Virus record (IMG/VR): IMGVR_UViG_3300044730_001822
Coordinates: 69,427 to 133,426 of that record
Origin: a virus
DNA: 64,000 bases
Direction: 5' to 3' (one strand)
Shown here piece by piece: positions 37,695-51,563 of the stretch. Position numbers and translations under genes: made by a program. The notes under the pieces were generated by a model. It was not told where the DNA came from. It saw only the letters and a list, made by a program, of their open reading frames with translations, and ran no database searches. The first letter of the stretch is position 1; each line of letters starts with the position of its first letter.

Positions 37695-40079
37695 ATGCCA
37701 TATACCGTAACCCTAACGCGAGGAGCAGTATTTGCTAATATAGCAGACGGAACCATCAATCAAACGTCAACCATGACCTTGATTGGTCGAGATTTTGCCA
37801 ACTACGGTCAGTTCGTAGATCAAGATTTAGTTCGTTTGCTAGAATCGGGCGCTGCCACACAAAACAGAAGCGCAACCAGCGCACTCACCGGACAACTTTG
37901 GTTTGATCTAACCAATACCCAACTTAAAGTAGCCACTCTGGGTAACATACCCAATGGTGCGGCCTATACCACCAGCGGTCCTATCAAATGGCAAGGCGCC
38001 AGCCCTGCATATTCTGTAACAGCACCAGTGAACCCAGTGGTAGGCGATACTTGGATGTATACCAATACCAATGCCAACATACCGCAGATGGTAGTTTGGA
38101 CTGGTGATACAGCCAACACAAACTTCCTAGGTAATCTGCCAGGATGGAAAGTAATTGGACCTACCACACGTTCGGATATCGTTGAATTCGGTACCATCAA
38201 TGCAGATTATGCCAATTTTGATGAAACAGTAAACATAGATGTATTGTATGCCAATGTAGCTACTGTGGCCGAGTCGGTATTGATTGGACAGTATGCCAAT
38301 GGTGCCAACGTCAACACAGCATTTTTACAGGTATTGGGCGATGGCATCTATGGAAATCTCAACGGAGATCAACCCTATGTGACCAGTCTGGGTAATGCTT
38401 CCAACGGTTTTGGGTATCTCAGTAACATACAGGTTGGCAGCATATCCGGTGGAGCATTGACCACTATCAATTCCAATGTTGGTATTACCACCACCGGTTC
38501 TATCACCGGAGTACAAATTACCGGCAGTACTATCCAGGCCACAGGCGGTGGATTCTACGGTCTTATCAACGCAGCTACTTCGGATCAAAAATTCATCTAT
38601 GGCTTGGGTGTACAAGCACAGGCCTACTCTACCGCCAACAGCAACGCTATCGTTCGAGGTGGCACCAGTGCTGGTCTTGCAGTCAGTCGTAAAATCGTAG
38701 TAGACTACGGCAATGGATTTGCTGGAGTCAGCGATGTTGACATTGGCGAACCCTCGCCCACCGGTCCAAGATTCCGCGGAGTCTATGCCAACACATTCTT
38801 TGGTAATCTTTCGGGACAGATCCTTGGCGATGTGCCCAGCATCAGTTCCAATGATATTGTTGTGCCCAGTGCAGATGGCTTGATATTAATCGGCAGTGGA
38901 AACTTACAACAAGGCACCGGCAATGTCAGAATCGACGGCGGCAATGGCACAGGCAGTTTTAACAACGCTATCTATATTGGTCGCCCCGGCGGTAACTATG
39001 GCAACGGCAATGTTGGCATCATACATAGCTATGGTACCAGCACAGTATTTGGCGGGGTGGGAAATATCTTAACATTTACCGATCTTACTGGCAATTGTCT
39101 CTATGATTTCTACAAAGATGTTCGTGTACGCGGTAATTTATATGTTTTAGGAAATACTGTTACAACATCTGTCACAGAAGTTACTACCAACGACTTAGAT
39201 ATTGTTGTGGCCAATAATGTACAAACAGGCAACATCGTCAATGCCAGCGGCGCTGGCATAGTAGTAGGTGCTAACGCTACTATAAAAATGGTAACAGTTG
39301 TTGCAGGATCTAGCTCAGCTGGATATGATGCTCAACGTTGGCAAATGAATCGTAGTTTAGAGATCACAAGCGACAGTCCGGCCACGGGTGGCAGTATCGG
39401 AGATCTACGTGTAGCAGGCAATGTCTATGCCTGCACATCAGCCAGTATCGCTTCACTTAACATAACCGGCACCGGTGGTATAGTATCAACTGGCGCCAAT
39501 GTGTTGCCAGCCGCTAGCCTTACTTCTGCCAATCGTCCTATTATCGACGGCTCTACGGGTACAGTGGGTTATGCCGCAGGTTTGTATGATGCTGCCACAG
39601 GTAGATACTATTGGACTGAAGAAGGATCTGCACTGTCGGGCACTCCCTATACGGCGGTGGTTCGAGATGTCAACGGCAGTATCAATGCTACAGAATTTTC
39701 CGGTATTGCTACCAAGGCTAGATACGCTGACTTGGCCGAGATGTATTTGGCAGATCGCGAGTATGCACCAGGAACATTGGTCACAGTAGGCGGCGATGCA
39801 GAAATCACCCAATGCACCATTAATGATCATCCTTTGGGCGTAGTATCTACCAATCCAGCATACCTTATGAACACAGCTTTGGAAAATGGAACACCAGTGG
39901 CACTACGTGGCCGCGTGCCAGTTCGCATCACTGGCGCAGTACACAAAGGTGACAAATTGGGTCCCAGCGAAGTGCCCGGACTATGCACCAAAAATAATCA
40001 AGCACCAATAGCCATCGCGCTACATAATGCTTATGCAGAACCCGGTACCGAAACCACAGTCGAAGCAGTCATATTGTAA
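37695..40079 (+). CDS. tail fibre protein with C-terminal intramolecular-chaperone (peptidase G2/IMC-like) domain
   Basis: N-terminal anchor (L-G--Y--YG...LLE...GQLWFD), Gly/Asn/Thr-rich beta-shaft, C-terminal A-YADLAE-Y..PGT-V...GVVST-PAYLMN...VAL-GRVPV-I-G-V-KGD. Confidence 0.75.
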   Translation: MPYTVTLTRGAVFANIADGTINQTSTMTLIGRDFANYGQFVDQDLVRLLESGAATQNRSATSALTGQLWFDLTNTQLKVATLGNIPNGAAYTTSGPIKWQGASPAYSVTAPVNPVVGDTWMYTNTNANIPQMVVWTGDTANTNFLGNLPGWKVIGPTTRSDIVEFGTINADYANFDETVNIDVLYANVATVAESVLIGQYANGANVNTAFLQVLGDGIYGNLNGDQPYVTSLGNASNGFGYLSNIQVGSISGGALTTINSNVGITTTGSITGVQITGSTIQATGGGFYGLINAATSDQKFIYGLGVQAQAYSTANSNAIVRGGTSAGLAVSRKIVVDYGNGFAGVSDVDIGEPSPTGPRFRGVYANTFFGNLSGQILGDVPSISSNDIVVPSADGLILIGSGNLQQGTGNVRIDGGNGTGSFNNAIYIGRPGGNYGNGNVGIIHSYGTSTVFGGVGNILTFTDLTGNCLYDFYKDVRVRGNLYVLGNTVTTSVTEVTTNDLDIVVANNVQTGNIVNASGAGIVVGANATIKMVTVVAGSSSAGYDAQRWQMNRSLEITSDSPATGGSIGDLRVAGNVYACTSASIASLNITGTGGIVSTGANVLPAASLTSANRPIIDGSTGTVGYAAGLYDAATGRYYWTEEGSALSGTPYTAVVRDVNGSINATEFSGIATKARYADLAEMYLADREYAPGTLVTVGGDAEITQCTINDHPLGVVSTNPAYLMNTALENGTPVALRGRVPVRITGAVHKGDKLGPSEVPGLCTKNNQAPIAIALHNAYAEPGTETTVEAVIL

Positions 40080-40549
40080 TGAATAGTATAGACGAATTCG
40101 AAGCCTTTATAGGCCGAGAGTTTGTCTATCAGCATAACCTAATAAGCATAATAAAAAACAGTCAACATCATTTGGTTTACTCCTATGATCAGTTGAAGAA
40201 AACATACAATGGTTGCTCGATCAAACTCGAAGGCCTAGAACGCTATTCTAGAGAACTAGCGATCAAATGTGCTGGATTGAAAATTTATCATGATCACACG
40301 GGTCCGGTCACTTGCCATGCCTACAGAGCCTATCCTGGATCAGAAAGTTTTGGTCGGCACACAGATCCCATGCCAGTGTTTTTAGAAGTAATAGAAGGCA
40401 CCAAAAATCTCATAGTAGATGGAGAATGGCACACTCTTGAATCGGGCCAAACGCTGTTTATACCAGCCAATACATCACACGAGGCTATAAATCAAGACGA
40501 CAGCCTAATGTTGAGTTTTGGATTAGAATCATATCTAATTGATCGATGA
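40079..40549 (+). CDS. JmjC/cupin-4 (ROX/YcfD/NO66-like) 2OG-Fe(II) protein hydroxylase candidate
   Basis: CHAY-----S-SFG-HTD---F---IEG-K...LESG--LFIP----HEA: HxD...H triad in the Cupin_4 pattern. Confidence 0.7.
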   Translation: MNSIDEFEAFIGREFVYQHNLISIIKNSQHHLVYSYDQLKKTYNGCSIKLEGLERYSRELAIKCAGLKIYHDHTGPVTCHAYRAYPGSESFGRHTDPMPVFLEVIEGTKNLIVDGEWHTLESGQTLFIPANTSHEAINQDDSLMLSFGLESYLIDR

Positions 40550-41619
40550 CCAACTATTTCAGTTACCTCAAGACCACAGAAACCTGTAATCTAAACTGCC
40601 AACACTGCTTTACTTCAGGCACACAAGGGCGGAAGATTTTTTGGAATCCCGATCAGGTGGCAGATTTTTTCTTGAGATTTCGCGATTATGTTGGTCAGGC
40701 CAACGGAATGCACTATGAATTCCACGGCGGTGAACCTTTTTTAGCTCCAGTGTCAGACATGATCGATGTCTACGAGAAATTAAAAAATAGTTTTGATCAA
40801 ACTTCTTTTGGATGTACCAGCAATCTCACTTTTAAACTAACGCCAGACATAGAACAGTTCATACACGGACCATTGGGAAAACGAATAGGTACCAGTTGGG
40901 ATCCTGCCATAAGATTTGCTAATCAACGACAGGAGAGTCTCTGGAGACACAATGTAGAGCGCCTGCTGAACAGTGGAGTAACAATAAAATTGTTTGTGAG
41001 CGTAACACAAGATACCATCAGCATAGAACCAATCAAACTAATGGAATGGGTCCGGGATCTAGGAGTCCAGGAGTTGGATCTTGAACGTTTAACCAACAAC
41101 GGAAATGCAAGGCTGCATCCAGGAATATTTCCCGACAATCGTGATCAGGATGCTTGGTTTTTACGCCTGCATCATCAGATACAAGAACATGGAGCAAGAT
41201 CTTGGTTTACCAACGAATTCATGGAAAATATCTATGCCAAGTTTGAACAAAATTTGATAGGAGCAGGCACATTCTGCAGAGATTGCGAACAAAAACTGTT
41301 TACTATCAATGCCGACGGCACCATTGGTGGTTGCCCAAATGCTGCGCCCGAAGAAGGGTTTGGGCATATTTCTATGGGCATAGCGGAAATTATGACGCAT
41401 CCACAGCGCATACACAACATAGCCTGCGAATCGCATAGAAACCCATTGTGCTATGATTGCGATGTGTTTGATAAATGCGGATCAGACTGCCATCAATTGG
41501 GCTGGCAACACGACGTCTGTGGTGCCCCAAAAAGTCTCATGCGAGAGTTGAAATTTGGTCAGAAAATAGCGGCAAAAAACCCACGCATCTTTCGGATTCA
41601 GCCCGCTTCTACAATATAA
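40546..41619 (+). CDS. radical SAM/SPASM enzyme 1
   Basis: CNLNCQHC; FHGGEP; SPASM cysteines CRDC...GCP...CYDCDVFDKCGSDC...C. Confidence 0.9.
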   Translation: MTNYFSYLKTTETCNLNCQHCFTSGTQGRKIFWNPDQVADFFLRFRDYVGQANGMHYEFHGGEPFLAPVSDMIDVYEKLKNSFDQTSFGCTSNLTFKLTPDIEQFIHGPLGKRIGTSWDPAIRFANQRQESLWRHNVERLLNSGVTIKLFVSVTQDTISIEPIKLMEWVRDLGVQELDLERLTNNGNARLHPGIFPDNRDQDAWFLRLHHQIQEHGARSWFTNEFMENIYAKFEQNLIGAGTFCRDCEQKLFTINADGTIGGCPNAAPEEGFGHISMGIAEIMTHPQRIHNIACESHRNPLCYDCDVFDKCGSDCHQLGWQHDVCGAPKSLMRELKFGQKIAAKNPRIFRIQPASTI

Positions 41620-41622
41620 ATA
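41615..41622 (+). promoter_or_regulatory. perfect T4 late promoter TATAAATA, 5 nt before ATG of CHSS protein 1
   Basis: TATAAATAtaagcATG. Confidence 0.7.
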
Positions 41623-41627
41623 TAAGC

Positions 41628-42404
41628 ATGGCACAAATTCAATCTAATTCACTGATAAATGCTTCTAATGTAGTCAGCTCTTTTTTCACAGAAGTAGTTA
41701 GCGTTAATTCTTCGGGCACAGGAGCAACCGTGGCCAAGAACAACAATACAAATTTAGCCGATGCCGTGGTATGGGGTCCAACCGGAGGTGGACTAGGACA
41801 ACAATGGCCCACAATGACTGCCGCAGAAATTCCCCTATGGCAATCACAGTTTTCTGGTGGTACTGGGAGTTTTGCGTTAAATAGAACCGGGGCAGTGGCA
41901 GCAGGATCAAATGCCTGGGCCACCGGCAGCGTGACTCCAACTAATTTTAATTCTGCAGCACCCGGTACACCGCAAGATCCTGTTTACGCCAGCAAGTATT
42001 CAGGTTCGGGAGTACCCAGTTCCACAGCATTGTTATATACGGCTGCCAGACAATATCTTTCAATCAATTGGACCACAGCCACTAGATATCTACTGGGCGG
42101 TAGTCCCACTGTATATGGGCCTTTTAAAGGTACCTTTAATACTGCTCAGTTCTCTAATAATTTTAACAATTCTATTGGACCATTGGGATACGATGGCGGC
42201 GAGGATTTAGGCAGTGTAGCCGACTCTACCTATGGTGCCGGTAACACTGTGGCCAATCCGTCGGATCAAACTGAGTGGGGCATCAATAATTATTTCCAAG
42301 CACTAAAGACTGCTTTCAATTCAAGGCCAGTATCTACGGTCAGTATCACAGTTTGTCATTCTAGTTGTCACAGTAGCTGCCACGGAAGCCGTGGCAGGAG
42401 ATAA
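41628..42404 (+). CDS. CHSS-tail protein 1 (258 aa; putative modified structural protein / RiPP-like substrate)
   Basis: G/S/T/N/A-rich body with no Cys or His; C-terminus CHSSCHSSCHGSRGRR. Start reassigned from 41475 to ATG 41628 behind the late promoter. Confidence 0.8.
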   Translation: MAQIQSNSLINASNVVSSFFTEVVSVNSSGTGATVAKNNNTNLADAVVWGPTGGGLGQQWPTMTAAEIPLWQSQFSGGTGSFALNRTGAVAAGSNAWATGSVTPTNFNSAAPGTPQDPVYASKYSGSGVPSSTALLYTAARQYLSINWTTATRYLLGGSPTVYGPFKGTFNTAQFSNNFNNSIGPLGYDGGEDLGSVADSTYGAGNTVANPSDQTEWGINNYFQALKTAFNSRPVSTVSITVCHSSCHSSCHGSRGRR

Positions 42405-42406
42405 CC

Positions 42407-43189
42407 ATGACTATCTCCACCGGTGATCTAATAAGATCTCAAAATCCCGGCAACGCTCAAAGCATAATACAAAGTTTTATCAATGGATATCTGGCATCTA
42501 CCAATGCCAACAGTCCTAACAACAGTCTTGTGTTTTATACCGGGAGTTATCCAACTAGAACTGTTCCCACAGCATATCGTGCATCAGCCGACGCAGTTTA
42601 TGCTGGTCTGGGCTTATTCACTGGCATCGGTAATCGTGTGTCTAATGTTATATCAGACAGTAATATAGCCAACGTCAGTAACAATACTATATTTGCCAAT
42701 ACGGGCGTGACGTTGACTTATGGTAACAATGCAGCCCAGGCCATAACCACCGGCAATACATACACAGGATTCAGCCAAATATTTTTTAGAGAATTACAAA
42801 GATATTTGATTTATAGAAACATCTATGCCAGCACTTCTATCACAGGTAATATGTATCCTGCCAACGTTCCATTTATTGATCAAGGCAAAGGCTTGATCGA
42901 TCCTAGTTTTTCAGGAGCAGGAGTAACCAATTGGAATGGTGGAGCCATTGATCCAAATGCTATAACAAATCCCGCTGGTAATGCTAATTTAGCCACAGAC
43001 AGTGCGGTCAGTGCCGACACCAATGGTATCATTGGTGGAGAAGATGCCACAGCTTTTAATACCTATTGGTCACAGTTGATGACCAATTGGGTGGCAGCTT
43101 ATTCGGGCACTGGTACTATTTCAATCACTACAACATTATGCCACAGCAGTTGCCACAGCAGTTGCCATGGTTCACGAGGACGGAGATAA
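42407..43189 (+). CDS. CHSS-tail protein 2 (260 aa; paralogue of protein 1)
   Basis: Same composition, no Cys or His outside the tail; identical C-terminal 16 aa. Confidence 0.85.
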   Translation: MTISTGDLIRSQNPGNAQSIIQSFINGYLASTNANSPNNSLVFYTGSYPTRTVPTAYRASADAVYAGLGLFTGIGNRVSNVISDSNIANVSNNTIFANTGVTLTYGNNAAQAITTGNTYTGFSQIFFRELQRYLIYRNIYASTSITGNMYPANVPFIDQGKGLIDPSFSGAGVTNWNGGAIDPNAITNPAGNANLATDSAVSADTNGIIGGEDATAFNTYWSQLMTNWVAAYSGTGTISITTTLCHSSCHSSCHGSRGRR

Positions 43190-43192
43190 CAA

Positions 43193-43924
43193 ATGTCAAA
43201 CACAATTCATACTATCGCACCCATCAGTTTAGATAATCTAAAATTATATTTTGCAGATAAAACTATAAACTATCTTGTGGATTATAAAAACAGCAAATTG
43301 CAAGGTCAAAAGTTACTTACATATCTTGGAAACTTAGATCTCAAAGCAGATATCCAAATCGACGATGCCCGCGATCCAGAATTCCTTGAACTACTTAAGG
43401 TATACTTCGAAAGCACCACCTTGGTCAATGTGCCTTCTTTGGAAAGAGCTGCTATACAGGTGTTGTTTGAATATCGCGGACTAGTACCCAGTGATTTTTT
43501 CTCGGAATTTATACAAAATAATCAAGAGGTATTAAGTTCCTGGACTAGTAAGTTAGATAGTCTGGTGCTGTACAATACTTGGATTATCAATGATCAAGCA
43601 GCCAAAGACGAAGTGTCGTCTTTCCCCTTAGATGAAACTGACAGCATAGATGGCATAAACTGGGTTAGTTTGCTTAAACACGAAGATTTTTACTTTTACT
43701 TTCAAACCGTTGATTTTTCAAATTTAAAGAACTATACTCGCTATTTTAACGAAAATCTGTTTAAAGGCAAGAATCTCTATACTTTTTGGGCCAACGAAAA
43801 AAATCCTATGTTTCTTATCACTTGGGGCATATTAGAGCAACAAATAAATAGTACTGAGTGGGCCACACTGCTGAACAAAGCCACACAAGAGATTAAGGAT
43901 CAAGAAAATGCTACATCTGTTTAA
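43193..43924 (+). CDS. hypothetical protein in the radical SAM cluster
   Basis: 243-aa ORF 3 nt after CHSS protein 2; no motif recognised. Confidence 0.7.
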   Translation: MSNTIHTIAPISLDNLKLYFADKTINYLVDYKNSKLQGQKLLTYLGNLDLKADIQIDDARDPEFLELLKVYFESTTLVNVPSLERAAIQVLFEYRGLVPSDFFSEFIQNNQEVLSSWTSKLDSLVLYNTWIINDQAAKDEVSSFPLDETDSIDGINWVSLLKHEDFYFYFQTVDFSNLKNYTRYFNENLFKGKNLYTFWANEKNPMFLITWGILEQQINSTEWATLLNKATQEIKDQENATSV

Positions 43925-45035
43925 AAGGGTATATTTGTCCATAGATGAAACCCTAGATACATCTAATCATAGAATTGTGATAAGCCAAGATTATGGTTAT
44001 CCAATGGTCACAGATCAAACTAACCTTGGTACTCTACTAAATTACGCCACAAGTTTAGATGCTGTTATTGGTCCCGACGCAGCGTTTGCTAACTATCTTG
44101 GGTTTTTTAATTACCTAGATGGCCAGTGCGATAGTCTTGATGCACAGTTGGTTGTATATGCCGATAAAGATGCATTTGTAAAACTATCAACTAACTTTTT
44201 ACGAGCAGCACTGCCATTGGCCAACGCACAAGATATATATAGGATCCTATCTTACTATCTTGCTAGACAAAATTTACTTTGCTCCAGTGCAAATTATTAC
44301 AGCCCTGTACAGAATGTTGAAAGGCTCAAAAGCAAGACAGGTATCACGCAAGAAGAAGTTTCTGCAGAGTTTTTTGCCAATCGAGTCAATCCACCGGATT
44401 TCTATGCTTTTTTTGCTTCTAAGTACAAGGATCTCAGTATCGAGTACGTGGCAGCAACTTATAGTTACAACGGACGTCTGGCAACCGAGATGGCCGAACA
44501 GCTGAGATCATTTGCCATCAAACACGCTTATATGTGTGCTATCGAATCTAGACAAGCAATCTGTGACACTTTGTTATCTGCACATACACAGTCAGTATTA
44601 AATCTCGCCAATCTTCCAGTGCAAGAAATGATCAATGTAGTTAAAAACGCTGATAGTACTGCAATCTTTTTTGATGAAAGAGTATTCCCCAGAGAGGAAT
44701 CTACAGTCAGTCTTGATGCCAATTGGCGCAAATTATCAACAGCAGATATTGTAAAACTGTCAAGGATGTCTATCAAGGTACTACACGAAATTGAAAAATG
44801 GCCCATCATGCAAGATCTAGGTTATAACTCCATGCAGGTTTTACAGGCTATAGTTGATATCAATAATCCCCAGGCCTGGCAACGACATGCAGATAAAATG
44901 TTAGACAATCTTTGTCTTGTGGCCAATGAAGCAGAGCCACATAAAGTCAATGCATTGCTAGTAAATTATATCACAGAAAATCGTGGTGCCAATAAAGATT
45001 TATTGCGACCTTTTGTTGTCAACGGTTGTTACTAA
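43908..45035 (+). CDS. hypothetical protein in the radical SAM cluster
   Basis: 375-aa ORF overlapping the previous gene; no motif recognised. Confidence 0.7.
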   Translation: MLHLFKRVYLSIDETLDTSNHRIVISQDYGYPMVTDQTNLGTLLNYATSLDAVIGPDAAFANYLGFFNYLDGQCDSLDAQLVVYADKDAFVKLSTNFLRAALPLANAQDIYRILSYYLARQNLLCSSANYYSPVQNVERLKSKTGITQEEVSAEFFANRVNPPDFYAFFASKYKDLSIEYVAATYSYNGRLATEMAEQLRSFAIKHAYMCAIESRQAICDTLLSAHTQSVLNLANLPVQEMINVVKNADSTAIFFDERVFPREESTVSLDANWRKLSTADIVKLSRMSIKVLHEIEKWPIMQDLGYNSMQVLQAIVDINNPQAWQRHADKMLDNLCLVANEAEPHKVNALLVNYITENRGANKDLLRPFVVNGCY

Positions 45036-45046
45036 AAGAGGATACC

Positions 45047-46099
45047 ATGAATGTTGGCATTCGGGATTTTATCTTAGAACGTAAACGAGACACCGAACAA
45101 GAATATACCATACACTTATTTGAGTTTTGTAATCTCAGTTGCCAATTTTGTTGGCAAGACCACAATGACATACGCGGTATAGACACCGTTAGAAGTCTAA
45201 TGCCCAAACTAAAGCAGATGCTGGCCCGAGAAAGTCGTGATCGGGTCATACTGAACTTCATGGGCGGCGAGATCTTTGCTCCAAAGATCTTTACACATCA
45301 ACTGCTGGAAGATTACTACTACATCATTGATTCGGTCAAGATGTGGCAATCCGAACTAGATAAAAAGATCATAGTCAATTGGGTGACCAATTTGGTATTC
45401 GATGCAGAGCAGAGAGATTTTGTCAAATCCTTGTTACAGTACGCAGACAACCTAGCAGTCAAGTCACGACTGACTACCAGTTACGATGCCCTGGGCCGTT
45501 TCAATCGCGGCGATCTAGAAAAGTGGAAATCAAACGTAGAATACTTTAGGAGTGACATAGAAGGTGTCAGTATGTTGCTCAGTGGTCCAAACATCAGGAA
45601 TCTTTTAAAGAATAGAGATACTGTGTTCCAGTGGATCTACAACAGCGGATTGTATATCTACTTTGATTACTATATGCCCGACAAAACCGCCGACTATCAA
45701 GCACCGTCGGACCAAGAACTGTATGATGCATTTGTGTTCTTGATCGATAACTACCCTCAGGTGCATCCTGTGGCCGAGTGGATCAACTACAGCCGAAACT
45801 TTGCCAGTTGCCGCAGCAGCAAACTTTTGTTGTGGGATGGTACTGAATGTATGTGTGGCAATCTTGTGCAAGAAGAAAAAAGTATCAAGTTCTATCGCAG
45901 TAAAATCCAAACCAACGACAACAGTGACATAGAAGAAAACTTTCTAAAGAAACACGACTGTATCAGTTGCCAATGGTTAGATCGCTGTACCTTCAGTTGC
46001 TTTATGCAACACGACAACAAATACCGAGACGAGTTTCCTGACTGCGTCTATGCTAGAATCTTTGATTACGCACACGCCAATGATAAGTTGTTGGCATAA
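45047..46099 (+). CDS. radical SAM/SPASM enzyme 2
   Basis: CNLSCQFC; MGGE; C-terminal C...CMC...CISCQWLDRCTFSC...C. ATG 45047 follows a GAGGA SD. Confidence 0.88.
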   Translation: MNVGIRDFILERKRDTEQEYTIHLFEFCNLSCQFCWQDHNDIRGIDTVRSLMPKLKQMLARESRDRVILNFMGGEIFAPKIFTHQLLEDYYYIIDSVKMWQSELDKKIIVNWVTNLVFDAEQRDFVKSLLQYADNLAVKSRLTTSYDALGRFNRGDLEKWKSNVEYFRSDIEGVSMLLSGPNIRNLLKNRDTVFQWIYNSGLYIYFDYYMPDKTADYQAPSDQELYDAFVFLIDNYPQVHPVAEWINYSRNFASCRSSKLLLWDGTECMCGNLVQEEKSIKFYRSKIQTNDNSDIEENFLKKHDCISCQWLDRCTFSCFMQHDNKYRDEFPDCVYARIFDYAHANDKLLA

Positions 46100-46736
46100 T
46101 CATAACGGACTGCCTTTTTGCCAAACTGATCTCAACTGTGGCATAGATGTTCCGGCAGTATCTAAAACAGTTGATATCAAAGTTCCTGAATGGTTGCAGG
46201 CCTGCGAACTTACAGATACCGTATTTGACTACACATCTGACGCAAGTATATTTCCACCCTGCGTGAATTTCTTTGGACGACCGCTCGAGGATCGCGTGAC
46301 AGTGCTAGGCATAAGATTAGAATCAGCATCGGGTGTTTTTGCCCACAGCGGCTTCATTGAAAAATCTCTACGGAATATCAGCCAACCGCTGAGCGGTACG
46401 CCCAGGGGAGTTGATAATATGCTGCCGGTAGCTTGGATTGGTTCGGAACAGTATCAAGGCAGCACCTATGTCAACAACAATCAAGTATCAGGACATCTAA
46501 GAAATTTGCTATCTAGAAAACAACTAAAAGAAATACATATTCTTCTAATGGATTTTGTTGAACAACGTCAATCAGTAAAAGTAGCGCATCATACCACCAT
46601 AGCACATTGGATCAAACAGCATGGACGTCAAGGTCAGAGATATATGCAATTTCCCTATACCAGTAGAGTCATGCGTGGGTGGATAAAAATTGAAGAATAC
46701 GGTTGGCTATGGTGGACTAGGCCATTAATTCGTTGA
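46080..46736 (+). CDS. hypothetical protein
   Basis: ORF overlapping the end of rSAM 2; start uncertain (46050 or 46080). Confidence 0.55.
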   Translation: MISCWHNHNGLPFCQTDLNCGIDVPAVSKTVDIKVPEWLQACELTDTVFDYTSDASIFPPCVNFFGRPLEDRVTVLGIRLESASGVFAHSGFIEKSLRNISQPLSGTPRGVDNMLPVAWIGSEQYQGSTYVNNNQVSGHLRNLLSRKQLKEIHILLMDFVEQRQSVKVAHHTTIAHWIKQHGRQGQRYMQFPYTSRVMRGWIKIEEYGWLWWTRPLIR

Positions 46737-48363
46737 CTAGAAGCAGCCGTATCATTGAATCATTGCTGGCAATAAAATCTGCTATGACATCTTGCTTGTA
46801 TCGTTGTTGTCCCGAATCATCCGCGAGATAAAACAAATCTCTGGCTTCGGTTGTGCAATCGTATAAATCAACTATCTGTTGATGTATGTGATCAAATCCC
46901 GGGCAGCTTTGCAGTATAGGGTACATACGTCTCATAAAGTCACTGATACTGATTGAATCTCGATACTGATCATAGTAGTTCATTCTTAAAGATTGTGCTG
47001 CTTGATTCATGAAATACATTTCATATAAATCTTGCCGAGAAAAACTATAGCAGCTGGCAATGGTATGAAAGTAATTTTTAGTGCCAAACATACTGGTGCT
47101 GTAGATAGCAGTCAGCTCCACTGAATGCTTTTCTAAATCGCCGGTGCTACTGGCCTCGGTAGCAGGTAGATAACTATATTCAAATCTAGGATCTGACCAA
47201 GAATGCAGTATCTCCATCATTGCAAATTCACTGTAGAAGTCGTCGATGGTGCTGCCCGGCATGCCCATTATAAATTCCACTGAAGCAATCTCTTTGATCT
47301 CTGCATAGGGTCTGCGGAAAAACTCTTCTCCGTATCGGTCTTTTAATCTATCGCGTATGTGATAGCACAGTTCAAACTGTTGCTCTAGTGTTAGATCGGG
47401 TCGTAGGGCATTGGTCAATGCTTCCTGGCTAAAGGTCTGAACCGATAAATTGGCACGCAGGCCTAGATTCACCAGTTGATCAATAATTCTTTTTTTACGC
47501 TCTAGCTTTTCTGTTTTTAGCAAACTCAACACATGAACACGCATACCTTTGCGTTTGATGATTTCTAGCATTTCAAAGTCGCGCTTTTCCAGCATTCCTA
47601 TGTTGGAATCAATCAAATCTATGGTCTTGAAACCCAGTTCTTCGATGCAATCCAAATCCTCGCGTATCTGCTCGATTGTTTTCTTTTCTAGTTTGACACC
47701 AGTTCCGCCACCCCACTCGCAGAAGGTACAGCGGAAAGGACAACCTCTGGTGCTTTCGTAGGTCATGCTCACAGGCATACCGCGGCTTTCAAAGTAGGCC
47801 TTGGCACGAGCTATATAGTCATAGTGTTCGCGATACACGCTAACATATGGATAGTAAAAACTCTTTTTAAGTCCACGACTTTTGATATCGAACGCTATCT
47901 CCAATGGATCGGGACGTCCGTTATTTTTAAACCAACTGTCAATCCAATCCTGCATATACAACTCTGCTGGCATGGTAGGTTCGCAGATGTAATCATACAT
48001 GGAATAACGATGTTCAAAATCTTTACGGTGTATGTCTACCTGCGGCCCGCCTATCTGTGTCAATATATGTGGATGATGCTGCTTGATCCAGCAGGCGGCC
48101 TGATCGTTGATTGAATAGTTCCAGATATAACTGCTGAACATGATGACATCGGCATCAACATATCGCTCAATGGCCTCTTCTACGGTCTTGATATCATACC
48201 AATCGTATATGGGTTCAATCCATTCTACTGAATCTCTATGCCTGCCATGTAAATCGTAATGCGTCTTGGCAAACATCCAAGTGAGATTCCAAGCATAAAA
48301 ATCTCTCTCTGCACTGGGATTGAAAAAGGCTATCCTCAAAGGACTCGTATTTGATCTTGCCAT
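46717..48363 (-). CDS. B12-binding-class (class B-like) radical SAM enzyme
   Basis: N-terminal Rossmann-like domain (FSSYIWN...GGPQ) then YESTRGCPFRCTFCEWG, D-N-G, SVQT, I-GMPG-T. Confidence 0.8.
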   Translation of the reverse strand: MARSNTSPLRIAFFNPSAERDFYAWNLTWMFAKTHYDLHGRHRDSVEWIEPIYDWYDIKTVEEAIERYVDADVIMFSSYIWNYSINDQAACWIKQHHPHILTQIGGPQVDIHRKDFEHRYSMYDYICEPTMPAELYMQDWIDSWFKNNGRPDPLEIAFDIKSRGLKKSFYYPYVSVYREHYDYIARAKAYFESRGMPVSMTYESTRGCPFRCTFCEWGGGTGVKLEKKTIEQIREDLDCIEELGFKTIDLIDSNIGMLEKRDFEMLEIIKRKGMRVHVLSLLKTEKLERKKRIIDQLVNLGLRANLSVQTFSQEALTNALRPDLTLEQQFELCYHIRDRLKDRYGEEFFRRPYAEIKEIASVEFIMGMPGSTIDDFYSEFAMMEILHSWSDPRFEYSYLPATEASSTGDLEKHSVELTAIYSTSMFGTKNYFHTIASCYSFSRQDLYEMYFMNQAAQSLRMNYYDQYRDSISISDFMRRMYPILQSCPGFDHIHQQIVDLYDCTTEARDLFYLADDSGQQRYKQDVIADFIASNDSMIRLLLVNELMA

Positions 48364-48923
48364 TGCTCTTGTATTCTGTATCCAAACACCATGCTTTGTC
48401 TATCGGTATCGCCAAAGTAAGGCCGTATTTTATGTATGAGATATCCAGGAAACATGACCAAGCGATTACTGAATGGTCTGATATGCACTGCATTGTCGGG
48501 CCAATTGAGTGCTGTAAAGTTTTTGTAGATGCTTAGTTCTCCGCCTGCCCAGTTTTGTTCAGTGTATTCGCTGCGGATATACAGTATGCAGGCCAAGAAG
48601 TAATTCTCTGCTATGTCTTCGTGCGGTTCCCAAAAAGGATTCTGCCAATTTGATTTATTATAAGCACGAAAGTTGGCTATCTGGAAGTTTGTGAGTTGTA
48701 ATCTCTCTGCGTCTATGTTGAGATCTTGGCAGTAGTTATAAACGCAGGCATCGATACGAAACTTGACATTGTCAAAATATGCACATTCGCTGGGATCAAG
48801 ACTGATATAGAATTCTTGTTTATTTAGAAATTTCTCTGTGATGAATTCACTGATGTTATCCCTTAATCTATCATCTAACAGGCCATCCTCGACGATGATG
48901 TTATCTCGAAATTGATGTATCAT
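48336..48923 (-). CDS. 2OG-Fe(II) oxygenase (prolyl-4-hydroxylase-like fold)
   Basis: PHED...ILY...W-GGEL...P--NRLV-FPG---H-I-P...R-S. Confidence 0.85.
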   Translation of the reverse strand: MIHQFRDNIIVEDGLLDDRLRDNISEFITEKFLNKQEFYISLDPSECAYFDNVKFRIDACVYNYCQDLNIDAERLQLTNFQIANFRAYNKSNWQNPFWEPHEDIAENYFLACILYIRSEYTEQNWAGGELSIYKNFTALNWPDNAVHIRPFSNRLVMFPGYLIHKIRPYFGDTDRQSMVFGYRIQEQWQDQIRVL

Positions 48924-49534
48924 AGTATGCGATTAGGATAGCACTTGAGGTCTCGTAGTCCCCAACAGTTGATTATGGCTGTGCGTGGTGTATGGCCAAA
49001 ATAAGGGTTCACACGATGTACATTGAAAGCACTGAACACTATCAGTCTATTCAGCAAAGGTTTAATCCTCACAGTGTTTTTGGGAAATTGGCCACAACTT
49101 AGATCCTTGTACAATATCAATTCGCCACCTACCCATTGATCCGATTGTTCATATTCGCTATTGACATACAGTATGGTATTGATAAACACATTTTCGGCCA
49201 TGTCATGATGTGGTTCGTGGAAAGCGTCACGGCTCATGTGTTCATTGAATCGATTTAGCCAAGCAACCTGGCAATTGGTATACTCAAGGTTATCCCAATC
49301 AACATCTACCTGCATACAGTGTTCCAAGGCCGCTGCTTCGACCATGGGAAAAAGCCGGCGCATGATCAAACTATGGTTGTCATTGATATCTTGATTGATT
49401 AAACTATAGGTATTGCCTGCAGGAGCGATGGTGGCTATCTGATGGTCGCACTCTTTCTGCAGTTCTTGTAAAAGATCTGCATCAACAAAATTTTCATGTA
49501 TGGAAAGGTGTTCAGACCACAGCGTATGTAGCAT
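48920..49534 (-). CDS. 2OG-Fe(II) oxygenase, paralogue of the adjacent gene
   Basis: PHHD...ILY...W-GGEL...P--NRLIVF----H-V-PY-G--PR; shares EPHxDxAEN, GGELxxYK and PYFGxT with 48336-48923. Confidence 0.85.
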   Translation of the reverse strand: MLHTLWSEHLSIHENFVDADLLQELQKECDHQIATIAPAGNTYSLINQDINDNHSLIMRRLFPMVEAAALEHCMQVDVDWDNLEYTNCQVAWLNRFNEHMSRDAFHEPHHDMAENVFINTILYVNSEYEQSDQWVGGELILYKDLSCGQFPKNTVRIKPLLNRLIVFSAFNVHRVNPYFGHTPRTAIINCWGLRDLKCYPNRIL

Positions 49535-49582
49535 ACCAGTATTTAGCGACCCAGTATTTTAGCACAGTAAATACTTGGTATG
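49532..49582. promoter_or_regulatory. back-to-back divergent late promoters forming an inverted repeat
   Basis: CATACCAGTATTTA (49532-49545) ... TAAATACTTGGTATG (49568-49582); each arm is TAAATA + 5-6 nt + ATG. Confidence 0.65.
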
Positions 49583-50662
49583 GATCTGATCATCAAACCC
49601 ACAGAACTTTGTAACTTCAAATGCACCTTTTGTTCCAGTACGAATATCACTGACAACAAAAATGCCACGCTGTCTGTTGATCAAATATTCCAATTCCTTG
49701 AACGATTTCCTGACACCAAAACAATCATAGTCAACGGCGGCGATCCACTCATGATGTCGCCTGCATACTATTGGAAGATCATTGACTGGTTGGACTTACA
49801 TGAGTATGATACCAGCGTCAGCTTTACCACTAATCTTTGGCCTTTTTATAAGAATCCAGAGAAGTGGGCGGACTTGTTCAATCACGAACGCATGGGTATA
49901 ACTACCAGTTTTCAATATGGTGGAGGTAGACTTAAGGGAGATCTCACCGAGTTTTCGGAATCCGACTTTTGGAAATGCAGTGACGCCATGCTACGCTATT
50001 GTGGATATAGGCCAGACTTTATCACAGTAATAACTGAAGAAAATGCAGATCGTGCTCTCGACAATGTGAGACTGGCCAAGAAGATGGATGTAGAATGTAA
50101 ACTGAATTATGCTTTCAGTTCAGGACCTCCTGTGAAGTTTCGCAACATCATCATGGGCCAGCAAGGTCGTCCTTTCGTACTGGCAGACATCTATGAAATC
50201 TATCTTGAAATTTGGCGTGAAGGTTTGTATCCCTGGGAACACAGTACCAAGACCATGATGAAACGACTGCGCGGTGAATCCACCATCTGCCCTCAGAATC
50301 GAGACTGTGATGTAGGCATACGCACACTACAACCTTCGGGCGACTACTACAGTTGCGGAGCCTTTGGTGATGACAAAGAATACGCTATAGATTTTGAACA
50401 GGAGATGAACAGTAAAACAATCATCAGGATACTGAACGATAAACCAGAACTGCAAAGCCTCAAGCAGAGCTGTTACAGTTGTCCTATGTTTGATATCTGC
50501 AATGGCTGTCGCAAAACCATAACCGATCTCAAGAGGCATAATCTGGTTGAACGCCACTGTAGTAAAATGAAAACACTAGCAGCTGATATCATTGAAGCTA
50601 ATGGTCTTGCTGGAAAATTAGAACCTACTGAATATGTGAAAGAATATGAATATATCACTTAA
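49580..50662 (+). CDS. radical SAM/SPASM enzyme 3
   Basis: IIKPTELCNFKCTFC; NGGDP; SPASM C-----C...G--YSC...CYSCPMFDICNGC...C. Confidence 0.9.
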   Translation: MDLIIKPTELCNFKCTFCSSTNITDNKNATLSVDQIFQFLERFPDTKTIIVNGGDPLMMSPAYYWKIIDWLDLHEYDTSVSFTTNLWPFYKNPEKWADLFNHERMGITTSFQYGGGRLKGDLTEFSESDFWKCSDAMLRYCGYRPDFITVITEENADRALDNVRLAKKMDVECKLNYAFSSGPPVKFRNIIMGQQGRPFVLADIYEIYLEIWREGLYPWEHSTKTMMKRLRGESTICPQNRDCDVGIRTLQPSGDYYSCGAFGDDKEYAIDFEQEMNSKTIIRILNDKPELQSLKQSCYSCPMFDICNGCRKTITDLKRHNLVERHCSKMKTLAADIIEANGLAGKLEPTEYVKEYEYIT

Positions 50663-51563
50663 CCCTTGGTATTACTGTAACTTCCGTTGTAAGTTTTGTT
50701 ATCTGACAGAAGGACAATTGTCTAGTCAGAAACTTATAAAGTTAGATACATTAGAAGAAAGATTACAGCAAGTGTTAGCACACTATGGCGTAGTTGATCA
50801 GATTGACGTTTATGGCGGCGAAGTGGCACTCTTGCCTCAGCAGTATTTTGATGACATGACTACAGTGCTCAAACGGTATTGTAAAAATCTAAATATGATT
50901 ACCAATCTCAGTGCTGTAAATCAAATTACAGAACATCCAGATTACAGTCTCAGTGTCAGTTACGATTTCAGTGCTAGGGAAAAACATGATTTGGTTTATA
51001 AGAATATGAGTATGCTTAAATCTGACTTTAGTGTGCTGATGTTGGCAAGTTCGCATTTGGTTTCTCTTGATCCCAACTATATGATTAATATGTTTAATCT
51101 TATACCAAGTCTTAGATCCGTAGAGATCAAACCCTACAGCCGTAACCAGGCCAATGATTTGGGAGTCACAGACAAAGATTTTGAAAACTATGTGATACGT
51201 TGGCTAACAGCTGCAGTTCCTAAAAAATTTGAGTTCGTCAATGATTTTTTGATAAAAAATGTATTGCAAGGACAGTCAAACAGCTACAGTGATGATCACA
51301 TATACATCACACCAAATGGTAGATTTGCGGTGTTAGAATTTGATATCAATGATCGAGAGTACTTCTTAGAAATGGATACCATTGAAGAATATCAACAATG
51401 GTGTGAACAAGAAAAACGACGTGTAAATCTCAATGAATACTGCAGAGACTGCGAGTTCAAAGGACGTTGTTTAAGTGAACATCTGCGTGAAGTCAAAGAT
51501 ATCAAAATGAGTTGCAACGGTTATAAACATTTGATACAATGGTATGGTCGTCAATACGCTTAA
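50646..51563 (+). CDS. radical SAM enzyme 4 with partial SPASM domain
   Basis: CNFRCKFC; YGGE; C-terminal CRDCEFKGRCLSEH...C. Confidence 0.85.
   Translation: MNISLNPWYYCNFRCKFCYLTEGQLSSQKLIKLDTLEERLQQVLAHYGVVDQIDVYGGEVALLPQQYFDDMTTVLKRYCKNLNMITNLSAVNQITEHPDYSLSVSYDFSAREKHDLVYKNMSMLKSDFSVLMLASSHLVSLDPNYMINMFNLIPSLRSVEIKPYSRNQANDLGVTDKDFENYVIRWLTAAVPKKFEFVNDFLIKNVLQGQSNSYSDDHIYITPNGRFAVLEFDINDREYFLEMDTIEEYQQWCEQEKRRVNLNEYCRDCEFKGRCLSEHLREVKDIKMSCNGYKHLIQWYGRQYA

What the first reader, a model, noticed from the sequence alone, without database searches (positions are those of the whole stretch)
42354..43189. The 16-aa tail is identical in protein but recoded in DNA, and holds every Cys and His of both proteins
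Seen in sequence: tail 1 (42354-42401) is tgt cat tct agt tgt cac agt agc tgc cac gga agc cgt ggc agg aga; tail 2 (43139-43186) is tgc cac agc agt tgc cac agc agt tgc cat ggt tca cga gga cgg aga. Twelve of 16 codons differ, all synonymously, including two TCN/AGY serine switches, while the ~240-aa bodies are barely alignable and contain no Cys or His. Both tails follow an aromatic amphipathic helix and a T-(V/I)-S-I-T strand (NNYFQALKTAF..TVSITV; NTYWSQLMTNW..TISITT). Inference: strong purifying selection on the tail rather than recent duplication; the helix-strand could be a recognition (leader) element and RGRR a follower or cleavage signal. Alternatives: a metal-binding tip of a trimeric fibre, or overlapping CX3CH haem-like motifs.
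Basis: partly seen in the sequence, partly recalled or inferred. Interest (0 to 1): 0.8.

Follow-up and report, generated by a model that had tools for sequence, protein, structure and literature searches.

The report
Conserved Cys-His tail on fibre-module proteins
Two neighbouring genes of a giant phage end in the same 16-residue Cys-His-Ser-Arg tail, a tail shared by hundreds of otherwise unrelated phage and predatory-bacterium proteins that sit beside radical SAM enzymes, so it is probably a site that those enzymes chemically modify.

Summary
Both genes (41628-42404 and 42407-43189) end in CHSSCHSSCHGSRGRR. Twelve of 16 codons differ, all synonymously, and every Cys and His of both proteins lies in the tail.

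The tail is the signature of a large unnamed family, (C-H-x-S)x3-R-x-R-R at the exact C-terminus. A profile search found 710 cluster representatives. In 142 of the 144 examined, all nine C/H/R positions are intact, while the bodies diverge beyond recognition.

The genes follow a fibre gene that carries an intramolecular-chaperone domain. They sit in a cassette with a JmjC-like cupin, a PapB-like radical SAM/SPASM enzyme, further radical SAM enzymes and 2OG oxygenases. The same order occurs in cultured jumbo phages (RSL2, RSF1, Atu_ph07, Phosso, pPa_SNUABM_DT01) and in Bdellovibrionota chromosomes.

Best reading (about 0.6): the tail is the substrate of the co-encoded radical SAM maturases, a RiPP-like modification of a full-length fibre-module protein. 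The chemistry is unknown; thioether or His-to-C-beta crosslinks are the leading candidates. An enzyme-tail complex prediction gave only weak support.

The closest precedents are the HXS defence system, PapB and CrpC/CrpA. No curated family cut-off is met. I found no paper on this family.

The parts
37695..40079 (+). Fibre-like protein (794 aa) with a C-terminal intramolecular-chaperone (IMC) autoproteolytic domain. A gene of this type precedes the tail-bearing genes in related loci.
   Evidence: Pfam Peptidase_G2 IMC domain at residues 659-728. In 68 related loci, only residues about 620-794 are shared with the upstream gene, whose length ranges from 194 to 2824 aa.
40079..40549 (+). JmjC-like cupin, a probable Fe(II)/2OG oxygenase
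   Evidence: Pfam Cupin_2 4.4e-11 and JmjC_2 1.8e-8. H94, D96, H134 and K109 are invariant in 18 homologues. It lies directly before the radical SAM gene in type A loci.
40546..41619 (+). Radical SAM/SPASM enzyme 'rSAM1', the candidate maturase of the tail
   Evidence: CX3CX2C at C14/C18/C21 plus eight invariant C-terminal Cys in a SPASM pattern. Best NCBIfam hit is PapB at 42.3 bits against a cut-off of 340. Profile hits in the PDB include 8vpo, CteB and anSME. It matches phrog_1802.
41628..42404 (+). Tail-bearing protein A (258 aa); the tail itself is 42354-42401
   Evidence: phrog_35144 matches the C-terminal region only.
42407..43189 (+). Tail-bearing protein B (260 aa); the tail itself is 43139-43186
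   Evidence: AlphaFold2 gives pLDDT 62.9. No fold match was found.
43193..43924 (+). Conserved partner 'p243' of unknown function (phrog_20767)
   Evidence: It lies directly downstream of the tail gene in 55 of 96 loci with enough flank. The AlphaFold2 model is confident (pLDDT 89.6) but matches no known fold.
43908..45035 (+). Conserved protein 'p375' of unknown function
   Evidence: Homologues occur in 44 related loci in the same position. No Pfam or NCBIfam hit.
45026..46099 (+). Radical SAM enzyme 'rSAM2'
   Evidence: Pfam Radical_SAM 4.3e-5. Found in 62 related loci.
46717..48363 (-). B12-binding radical SAM enzyme, methyltransferase-like
   Evidence: Pfam B12-binding plus Radical_SAM. 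NCBIfam KedN5 family 3.1e-24, below its cut-off.
48336..49534 (-). Two 2OG-Fe(II) oxygenase genes (48336-48923 and 48920-49534)
   Evidence: Pfam 2OG-FeII_Oxy_3.
49580..50662 (+). Radical SAM/SPASM enzyme 'rSAM3', DynA/DarE-like
   Evidence: NCBIfam DynA 9.4e-15 over the full length, anSME 1.8e-10 and HxsC 4.3e-7, all far below their cut-offs. Found in 38 related loci.
50646..51563 (+). Further radical SAM protein 'p305'
   Evidence: Pfam Radical_SAM 1.3e-6, just under the gathering score. Found in 27 related loci.

Best explanation
The 16-residue tail, (Cys-His-x-Ser)x3-Arg-x-Arg-Arg at the exact C-terminus, is the conserved modification site of a widespread family of phage and Bdellovibrionota proteins. 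These proteins belong to a fibre module. The co-encoded radical SAM/SPASM enzyme rSAM1 is proposed to act on the full-length protein in the cytoplasm and to install covalent changes on the three C-H-x-S units. Other enzymes of the cassette probably contribute as well: a DynA-like radical SAM enzyme, further radical SAM enzymes, a JmjC-like cupin and 2OG oxygenases.

The most likely chemistry is intramolecular crosslinking. One option is Cys thioethers of the PapB/CrpC kind. The other is His-to-C-beta links of the triceptide/HXS kind. The product would be a rigid C-terminal knob on a variable protein that is built into, or works with, the fibre encoded just upstream.

Shown: the motif, its invariance, its C-terminal position, the synteny and co-occurrence, and the enzyme class.

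Inferred: that the enzymes act on the tail, the type of chemistry, and the virion location.
For: 1. Invariance of the tail against diverged bodies.
- 64 of 64 homologues of protein B end in the motif.
- A 60-residue C-terminal profile finds 710 representatives at E<=1e-3 and 304 at E<=1e-10. Every listed match ends at the last residue of the protein.
- 142 of 144 newly fetched representatives keep all nine C/H/R positions. The other 2 have one-residue insertions.
- Outside the tail the median is 0 Cys and 1 His.

2. Selection acts at the amino-acid level.
- Across 179 distinct 48-nt tails, Ser4 uses 110 AGY and 55 TCN codons, and Ser8 uses 98 and 64.
- In 26 tandem pairs, a median of 9 codons differ against 1 residue.

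3. Linkage to the enzyme.
- An rSAM1 homologue lies directly upstream on the same strand in 58 of 88 tail loci with at least 1200 bp of upstream flank.
- Of 35 records without an adjacent one, 27 carry it elsewhere. The 8 that lack it are fragments at most 30% complete.
- In the reverse direction, 63 of 80 rSAM1-anchored loci have a perfect tail. Six of the other 17 records have tails elsewhere, and the remaining 11 are 2-17% complete.
- The order cupin-rSAM1-tail gene is kept in RSL2, Atu_ph07, Phosso and pPa_SNUABM_DT01. The cassette also occurs in a Halobacteriovoraceae chromosome.

4. Enzyme class.
- rSAM1 has a full SPASM cysteine set.
- Its nearest families are all peptide- or protein-modifying. 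PapB matches all 25 members scanned, best E 2.6e-17. In the PDB the profile finds 8vpo, CteB and anSME.

5. The motif fits known radical SAM substrates.
- It contains three CXXX units and three H-x-S units.
- A Dysosmobacter-labelled contig carries a member with about 13 such units, and two loci have four. Repeat expansion of this kind is typical of radical SAM substrates.

6. Precedents in the literature.
- HxsA, with five HxS repeats, is matured by the radical SAM enzymes HxsB and HxsC; His and Ser are essential (PMC13128918, abstract and section 9).
- CrpC installs thioethers on a full-length protein (PMC13692751, abstract and section 8).
- PapB links Cys to residues bearing a carboxylate, including the C-terminal residue (PMC12373016, abstract).

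7. Complex prediction of rSAM1 with residues 205-260 of protein B.
- Verdict: weak support. Median score 0.59 (runs 0.59, 0.64, 0.02); best of 3 controls 0.00.
- The mark was reached by 58 of 80 solved complexes and 2 of 110 mismatched pairs. At 0.60 or under, it was reached by only 7 of those 80 and by both mismatches that passed.
- The runs agree in at least 15% of contacts, and the partner's pLDDT is at least 30.
- My own alignments and the riding ligands make these counts rough.
Against: - No modification has been observed; no mass spectrometry data were accessible.
- rSAM1 and rSAM3 score far below every curated family cut-off, so the chemistry cannot be read from homology.
- The tail lacks the Asp/Glu acceptor of PapB substrates.
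- Cys and His are classic metal ligands, so conservation alone does not separate a substrate from a metal site.
- In about a third of loci ('type B') the tail genes sit next to the fibre gene and the enzymes lie kilobases away. The physical linkage is therefore looser than in a typical RiPP cluster.
- The complex prediction is only a weak pass, and one of three runs failed.
- The cassette holds many enzymes and could act on another protein, such as the fibre.
Confidence: 0.6

Rival explanations
1. The tail is an unmodified structural metal site. Its three Cys and three His per chain would bind Zn, Fe or Cu, perhaps along the axis of a trimer at the fibre. The neighbouring radical SAM enzymes would act on something else.
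For: All Cys and His of the proteins lie in the tail and are invariant. The i/i+4 spacing would place them on one face of a helix. The gene follows a fibre gene. From recall, phage fibres are known to hold metal ions on their axis.
Against: - Ser at the fourth position of each unit and the terminal R-x-R-R are nearly as conserved as Cys and His, and a metal site does not explain this.
- The family co-occurs with rSAM1 at genome level in both directions.
- Repeat number expands to 4 and to about 13 units in some members.
- No trimer or metal prediction was run, so this rival was not tested directly. It is also not exclusive of modification.
Confidence: 0.2
2. The tail is an unmodified docking or assembly signal. 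Its C-terminal peptide would be recognised by the fibre, by p243 or by another assembly factor, much like a chaperone or adaptor tag.
For: The tail is always at the exact C-terminus. p243 is the most constant immediate neighbour, in 55 of 96 loci. The bodies vary while both ends are conserved within sub-families, as in adhesins that plug into a conserved partner.
Against: A pure docking peptide would be expected to co-vary with its partner across such distant lineages, yet the tail is identical from phages of Ralstonia to Bdellovibrionota. This reading gives no role to the co-inherited radical SAM enzyme.
Confidence: 0.12
3. The overlapping CX3CH motifs attach haem covalently, as in variant c-type cytochrome sites.
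For: C-H-x-S-C-H reads as CX3CH twice.
Against: The two motifs share the middle Cys. The proteins have no signal peptide, in phages or in Bdellovibrionota, and phage structural proteins fold in the cytoplasm. No haem lyase or Ccm gene was seen in the cassette.
Confidence: 0.02

Closest known systems
HXS anti-phage system (HxsA/B/C/D; PMC13128918, Nat Commun 2026; I read the abstract, section 9 and passages)
   Same: A full-length protein with tandem His-x-Ser units rich in basic residues is matured by two co-encoded radical SAM enzymes. His and Ser of the modified unit are essential. The tail here holds three H-x-S units followed by R-x-R-R and sits in a multi-enzyme radical SAM cassette.
   Different: [quoted passage not shown]
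- Here the carrier is a phage or Bdellovibrionota fibre-module protein, the units are C-H-x-S, and they lie at the extreme C-terminus.
- HxsB and HxsC models score 16.7 and 29.1 bits against cut-offs of 370 and 268.
- No HxsA or HxsD model matches.
PapB / freyrasin ranthipeptide maturation (PMC12373016, abstract; NCBIfam NF047865)
   Same: PapB is the best-scoring curated family for rSAM1 and aligns over the full length (8-317 to 7-318 of 330). Like rSAM1 it is a radical SAM/SPASM enzyme of about 350 aa that begins directly with the cluster motif. Its substrate carries repeated Cys units at four-residue spacing, and PapB can use a C-terminal carboxylate.
   Different: The score is 42 bits against a cut-off of 340. 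PapA units are C-x3-D/E, and the tail has no acidic residue. PapA is a short peptide, not a protein of 130-530 aa.
CrpC/CrpA protein thioether crosslinks (PMC13692751, abstract and section 8)
   Same: A SPASM radical SAM enzyme modifies a large protein whose Cys-bearing repeats lie at the C-terminus, with a conserved N-terminal part shared between two paralogous substrates encoded side by side.
   Different: CrpC has an RRE domain and belongs to TIGR04463. The CrpA motif is C-x-x-Q/D in 17-residue repeats. The context is archaeal and not linked to phages.
Triceptides / three-residue cyclophane synthases (PMC11499958, abstract and introduction)
   Same: The motif logic is aromatic(1)-x-x(3), crosslinked from the ring to C-beta of residue 3, and His-based motifs (HTK, HAA) are known. 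H-x-S, with S sometimes N, Q, A or D, fits that logic.
   Different: Cyclophane-forming families (YhhB, AmcB, FxsB, XyeB) match only the N-terminal radical SAM core at E 1e-4 to 1e-6 for the window's enzymes. Triceptide substrates are short peptides with leaders.
Anaerobic sulfatase maturase (anSME) acting on C/S-x-P/A-x-R (motif recalled)
   Same: It is a SPASM enzyme without an RRE that acts on a full-length protein. The last unit, C-H-G-S-R, resembles the motif. anSME is among the best PDB and NCBIfam hits.
   Different: Position 3 is Gly, Ser or Asn rather than Pro or Ala. The first two units have no Arg at +4. Scores are far below the cut-off.

Membership tests
PapB family ranthipeptide maturase (NF047865), for rSAM1 | Score at or above the curated cut-off (340 bits) | tested here: not met
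   42.3 bits for the window's enzyme. Best E among 25 homologues is 2.6e-17, still far below the cut-off.
PapB family ranthipeptide maturase (NF047865), for rSAM1 | Substrate with Cys-x3-Asp/Glu units | tested here: not met
   The tail units are C-H-x-S. No Asp or Glu occurs in the 16 residues of the window's tails, and they are rare in the family.
Radical SAM/SPASM peptide- or protein-modifying enzymes (superfamily level) | CX3CX2C cluster motif plus the SPASM seven/eight-Cys pattern | tested here: met
   Invariant C14, C18 and C21, plus C244, C247, C263, C302, C305, C311, C315 and C325 in 25 sequences. The SPASM model TIGR04085 matches all 25 members.
CXXX-repeat target radical SAM maturase (TIGR04115) | Score at or above the curated cut-off (350 bits) | tested here: not met
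   32.9 bits. 18 of 25 homologues match at E<=1e-3.
HXS system | HxsB and HxsC radical SAM equivalogs (TIGR03978, TIGR03977) | tested here: not met
   rSAM1 scores 16.7 bits against 370; rSAM3 scores 29.1 bits against 267.9.
HXS system | HxsA-type effector and HxsD partner recognised by their models | tested here: not met
   No NCBIfam family matched tail proteins A or B, p243, or ten further members, beyond chance-level hits.
HXS system | Tandem His-x-Ser units in the substrate | tested here: met
   The tail holds three H-x-S units. In the third place of the units, Ser occupies 127, 112 and 131 of 144 representatives.
Triceptides | Aromatic-x-x motif crosslinked from the ring to C-beta | not testable with these tools
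   The motif is present (H-x-S). The crosslink can only be shown by mass spectrometry or NMR.
anSME substrates | C/S-x-P/A-x-R motif | tested here: not met
   The third unit is C-H-[G91 S34 N11 ...]-S-R, with Ala once among 144 and no Pro.
c-type haem attachment site | CXXCH motif and export to the periplasm | tested here: not met
   The spacing is CX3CH. N-termini show no signal peptides by eye. No predictor was run.
phrog_35144 (unknown function) | Match to the PHROG profile | tested here: met
   E 3.1e-9 for protein A and 3.1e-7 for protein B. The match covers only the C-terminal 40-65 residues of the proteins and the end of the profile.

The most novel reading that the evidence does not exclude
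Jumbo phages and predatory Bdellovibrionota share a dedicated multi-enzyme radical SAM/oxygenase cassette. It would convert the invariant (C-H-x-S)3-RxRR end of a hypervariable fibre-tip protein into a polycyclic, possibly metal- or surface-reactive knob. That would be a new class of post-translational modification of host- or prey-recognition proteins. It would also be the phage-side counterpart of the HxS chemistry that bacteria use in the HXS defence.
Probability: 0.35. Interest if true: 0.9.

Novelty: new variant of a known kind. Interest (0 to 1): 0.78.

Why it matters
Radical SAM maturation of short repeated motifs is known for peptides, and only since 2026 for a few full-length proteins (HxsA, CrpA). 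In the library I could search, nothing of the kind is described for virion or fibre-module proteins.

This family is large (710 cluster representatives). It has an unusually sharp and experimentally tractable signature: a 16-residue C-terminal peptide that trypsin would release. It occurs in cultured phages of Ralstonia, Burkholderia, Agrobacterium, Sinorhizobium and Pseudomonas, so the hypothesis can be tested directly.

If the tail is modified, three things follow:
- The many radical SAM genes long noted in jumbo and marine T4-like phages gain a function.
- New enzyme chemistry on Cys/His/Ser units is defined.
- Phage adsorption structures are linked to related structures in predatory bacteria.

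Tried and rejected
**Searches that found nothing**
- Nucleotide search of 40000-46000 against phage records: no match.
- tblastn of a 189-aa member against phage records: no match. This is probably because the low-complexity filter masks the tail. The family was then found in those phages through the enzyme.
- Pfam and NCBIfam on the tail proteins: nothing, apart from Gly_rich_2 in two long members.

**Fold of protein B**
- AlphaFold2 with 21 sequences gave mean pLDDT 62.9, and only one of five models was above 40.
- Foldseek against the PDB found nothing at E<=1e-3.
- BFVD returned only family members.
- VIA-align wide gave a best Z of 3.2.
- No fold assignment is possible.

**p243**
- The model is confident.
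- It has no sequence-profile hit in the PDB, no Foldseek hit, a best VIA Z of 4.5 over 54 residues, and no usable Atlas hit.
- Its role stays unknown.

**Other steps**
- rSAM1 as a single sequence against the PDB found nothing. The profile of 25 sequences did find hits.
- I considered and did not run a trimer prediction for the metal-site rival. The only complex job went to the enzyme-tail pair.
- Gene conversion as the cause of the identical tails is rejected because 16 of 48 bases differ.
- Eight of the 47 genome contigs pattern matches are spurious: seven have no tail ORF, and one is a CH-repeat frame in a high-GC genome. The 179 distinct tails counted may include a few of these.

**Literature searches that found no description of this family**
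- jumbo phage + radical SAM + virion (7 papers, gene lists only)
- CXXX repeat + radical SAM (0 papers)
- SPASM + bacteriophage + tail fiber (4 papers, irrelevant)
- Atu_ph07 + radical SAM (1 paper)
- Bdellovibrio + fibre + radical SAM (0 papers)
- phage/RiPP/radical SAM/SPASM/viral genomes (14 papers hold at least 4 of the 5 terms, 12 listed; none on this)

Supplementary tables were closed. Table S5 of PMC6102473 (the Atu_ph07 virion proteome) and Table S3 of PMC5468394 could show whether the tail protein is in the virion.
Full report
**1. What is in the window**

The window is part of a 133-kb IMG/VR virus record that CheckV estimates to be 37% complete. PHROG hits give its context: a baseplate hub, a 1158-aa baseplate wedge subunit and virion structural proteins. 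A 6027-aa ORF follows, and then a 794-aa fibre-like protein with a C-terminal intramolecular-chaperone autoproteolytic domain.

Directly after that fibre gene comes this run of genes:
- a cupin (40079-40549)
- a radical SAM/SPASM gene, rSAM1 (40546-41619)
- the two tail-bearing genes (41628-42404 and 42407-43189)
- two conserved genes of unknown function, p243 and p375
- a second radical SAM gene
- a B12-type radical SAM gene
- two 2OG oxygenases
- a third SPASM radical SAM gene and a further radical SAM gene

The tails have 16 identical residues, 12 of 16 codons differ, and 32 of 48 bases are identical. Each protein has three Cys and three His, all in the tail. This holds once protein A is started at ATG 41628, as its homologues are.

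**2. The tail defines a large family**

- All 64 proteins found with protein B end in the motif; one has Phe in place of the first Cys. About 40 of them share only the last 20-30% of their length with protein B.
These gave 148 tail-ending ORFs of 87-296 aa. Three size classes stand out: about 127 aa (usually in tandem pairs), about 187 aa and about 257 aa.
- To avoid circularity I collected 80 loci through rSAM1 alone. Of these, 63 hold a tail with all nine fixed positions (C,H x3; R, R, R) and none holds a degenerate tail.
- In these 80 loci the fourth residue of each unit is Ser, with occasional Asn, Gln or Ala, and the residue between the arginines is Gly or Ser.
- A 60-residue C-terminal profile searched against 1.84 billion representatives found 710 proteins at E<=1e-3 and 304 at E<=1e-10. 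Every listed match ends at the last residue of the protein.
- Of 144 newly fetched representatives, 142 keep all nine fixed positions, and 2 have a one-residue insertion. The median content outside the tail is 0 Cys and 1 His.
- At the DNA level both serine codon families and both arginine codon families are used at the conserved positions. In 26 tandem pairs a median of 9 codons differ against 1 residue.

**3. Genomic company**

Two arrangements recur:
- Type A: fibre(IMC) - cupin - rSAM1 - tail gene(s) - p243 - (p375) - rSAM2 - (B12 radical SAM / 2OG oxygenases) - rSAM3 - p305.
- Type B: fibre(IMC) - tail gene - tail gene, with the enzymes some kilobases away.

The linkage figures are:
- rSAM1 lies directly upstream in 58 of 88 loci with enough flank. 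p243 lies directly downstream in 55 of 96.
- For 35 records without an adjacent rSAM1, 27 carry one elsewhere. The 8 that do not are fragments at most 30% complete, and the single record at least 90% complete has it.
- In the reverse direction, 6 of the 17 rSAM1 loci without a tail have two tails elsewhere in the record. The other 11 records are 2-17% complete.

The only part of the upstream fibre gene shared among loci is its IMC domain. The fibres themselves range from 194 to 2824 aa.

Cultured phages show type A order:
- Ralstonia phage RSL2: gp066 cupin, gp067 radical SAM, gp068 tail protein
- RSF1
- Agrobacterium phage Atu_ph07: gp172, gp171, gp170
- Sinorhizobium phage Phosso
- Pseudomonas phage pPa_SNUABM_DT01, whose tail ends CHSARGRR

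The Atu_ph07 paper states that most virion proteins found by mass spectrometry are encoded in clusters that include CDS 170-215 (PMC6102473, passages read). Assuming the paper's CDS numbers match the record's locus tags (FDI40_gp170), gp170 is the tail protein and the radical SAM genes gp165-171 lie just outside or at that boundary. The table that would settle this is a closed supplement.

**4. The enzymes**

rSAM1 has the CX3CX2C motif and eight further invariant Cys in the SPASM pattern. It starts directly with the cluster motif, so it has no N-terminal RRE domain.

All 25 homologues scanned match PapB (best E 2.6e-17), anSME, DynA, YhhB and the SPASM domain model. Twenty-two match HxsB and 18 match the CXXX-repeat family. 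None comes near a curated cut-off. A profile of the family finds 8vpo, CteB, anSME, ChlB, MoaA and YydG in the PDB.

rSAM3 is closest to DynA/DarE, anSME and HxsC, again far below the cut-offs.

The cupin keeps an invariant HxD...H triad and a Lys, and it matches JmjC_2. It is therefore probably an active Fe(II)/2OG oxygenase.

In short, the cassette is a set of protein- or peptide-modifying enzymes that belong to no described family.

**5. Structure and complex predictions**

- Protein B folds with low confidence (pLDDT 62.9). In the model the conserved helix and strand before the tail form part of an alpha/beta body, and the tail itself has pLDDT about 50.
- No known fold was matched.
- p243 folds confidently (pLDDT 89.6) but also matches nothing.
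- Some long family members carry a Pfam Gly_rich_2 domain.

I ran one complex prediction: rSAM1 with three 4Fe-4S clusters, SAM and residues 205-260 of protein B. The verdict was weak support.
- The median score was 0.59 (runs 0.59, 0.64, 0.02). The best of 3 controls scored 0.00.
- The mark was reached by 58 of 80 solved complexes and 2 of 110 mismatched pairs. At 0.60 or under, it was reached by only 7 of those 80 and by both passing mismatches.
- The runs agree in at least 15% of contacts, and the partner's pLDDT is at least 30.
- My own alignments and the ligands make these counts rough.

This moves my odds up only slightly.

**6. Beyond phages**

The relaxed pattern hit 47 places among species-representative genomes, of which 39 are real tail ORFs. 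Twenty-seven of the 39 lie in Bdellovibrionota assemblies (Bdellovibrio, Bacteriovoracaceae, Halobacteriovoraceae, Pseudobdellovibrionaceae). Three of these sit on contigs of 1.29, 2.45 and 2.84 Mb.

All five Bdellovibrionota genomes I tested have an rSAM1 homologue at 40-45% identity.

On the 1.29-Mb contig the whole cassette is present. It is flanked on one side by a protein with an endosialidase-chaperone (S74) domain. On the other side lie an Mrp/NUBPL-type ATPase and a lytic transglycosylase. On the 2.84-Mb contig a signal peptidase II gene lies about 3.4 kb from the tail gene.

I could not decide whether these are cellular fibre systems or cryptic prophages. The N-termini resemble the phage ones and show no signal peptide by eye.

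Variants with four units and about 13 units (a short contig labelled Dysosmobacter) show that the C-H-x-S unit can be multiplied.

**7. Mechanism**

The simplest account of all this is that the tail is the site on which the cassette's radical SAM enzymes act. Four observations lead to it:
- an invariant short repeat at a fixed terminus
- strict co-inheritance with a SPASM enzyme whose nearest relatives crosslink Cys- or aromatic-containing repeats
- expandable repeat number
- bodies otherwise free of Cys

Three recent papers make this plausible for full-length proteins:
- HxsA, with five HxS repeats, is matured by HxsB and HxsC. It gains +8 Da on an SHRSS unit whose His and Ser are essential (PMC13128918).
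- CrpC puts thioethers on the C-terminal Cys repeats of the protein CrpA (PMC13692751).
- PapB makes six Cys thioethers at four-residue spacing and can also use a C-terminal carboxylate (PMC12373016).

The triceptide rule, aromatic-x-x crosslinked to C-beta and including His motifs, also fits H-x-S (PMC11499958).

Which bonds are made cannot be told from sequence. I rank them as follows:
1. Cys thioethers, because the enzyme is PapB-like and the substitutions at the Ser position (N, Q, A, D) all keep alpha and beta hydrogens.
2. His-to-C-beta links, perhaps made by the DynA-like rSAM3.
3. Formylglycine formation at the last Cys.

I give about 0.6 to 'the tail is modified by the cassette', about 0.2 to an unmodified metal site, about 0.12 to an unmodified docking signal and about 0.02 to haem.

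**8. Known or new**

The family exists as phrog_35144 with unknown function. It has no Pfam or NCBIfam model.

Genome papers list the radical SAM and cupin genes only as accessory genes (PMC11898562 and PMC5468394, passages). A marine study noted T4-like viral genomes with up to 12 radical SAM genes without assigning a role (PMC5332604, passages). Six literature searches found no description of the tail or of its link to the enzymes.

I confirmed its gene content: five radical SAM genes, 2OG oxygenases, a cupin and two tailed proteins.

I class the finding as a new variant of a known kind, namely radical SAM maturation of a repeat-bearing protein. It has an unusual carrier (phage and predatory-bacterium fibre modules) and an unusually sharp signature.

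Noticed in passing
L206-L252 (genome contigs); L253, L254: 27 of 39 real tail loci among species-representative genomes lie in Bdellovibrionota assemblies, three of them on contigs of 1.29-2.84 Mb. One of these carries the whole cassette between an S74-chaperone fibre-like gene and ordinary cellular genes. It is unresolved whether this is a cellular fibre system or a prophage.
   Followed up: partly
L234:3907-4266 (-): A short contig labelled Dysosmobacter segnis holds a truncated family member with about 13 CHxS/CHxN units separated by NVPV/NVV linkers before the usual ...CHSARGRR end. It is followed by p243, p375 and two radical SAM genes. The contig ends carry adaptor-like sequence.
   Followed up: no
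L235 and L243: Two Bacteriovoracia loci have tails with four C-H-x-S units instead of three.
   Followed up: no
window 18812-36895 (+): A single 6027-aa ORF lies between the baseplate wedge gene and the fibre module. The corresponding giant gene in Atu_ph07 is annotated 'virion structural protein'.
   Followed up: no
window 41475-41627: The mechanical ORF, and the gene call stored for this contig (309 aa, P0083), start protein A at 41475, inside the end of the radical SAM gene. Homologues start at the ATG at 41628. The longer call adds a spurious Cys and two His.
   Followed up: yes
window 43193-43924 (+): p243 (phrog_20767) gives a confident AlphaFold2 model (pLDDT 89.6). It has a small N-terminal beta-alpha-beta unit and a helical domain, and it matches no solved structure (best Z 4.5).
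   Followed up: partly
P0149, P0227 (family members of 453 and 483 aa): Long members of the tail family carry a Pfam Gly_rich_2 domain (E 7e-11 and 1.2e-5). Glycine-rich motifs also occur in protein A of the window.
   Followed up: no
records G013, G017, G034: The rSAM1 matches in three viral records are reported with one or two in-frame TAA codons inside the match. I did not check whether this reflects the gene ends, breaks or another genetic code.
   Followed up: no
window 2773-5549 (-), 55616-56893 (-), 59377-60801 (-): Elsewhere in the window there are SbcC/SbcD-like nuclease subunits, an HNH endonuclease and an aminotransferase-like gene. No tRNA genes were found.
   Followed up: no
L125 (Pseudomonas phage pPa_SNUABM_DT01): This phage has seven annotated radical SAM genes in a row after the tail gene, and its tail has Ala in place of the last Ser.
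   Followed up: no
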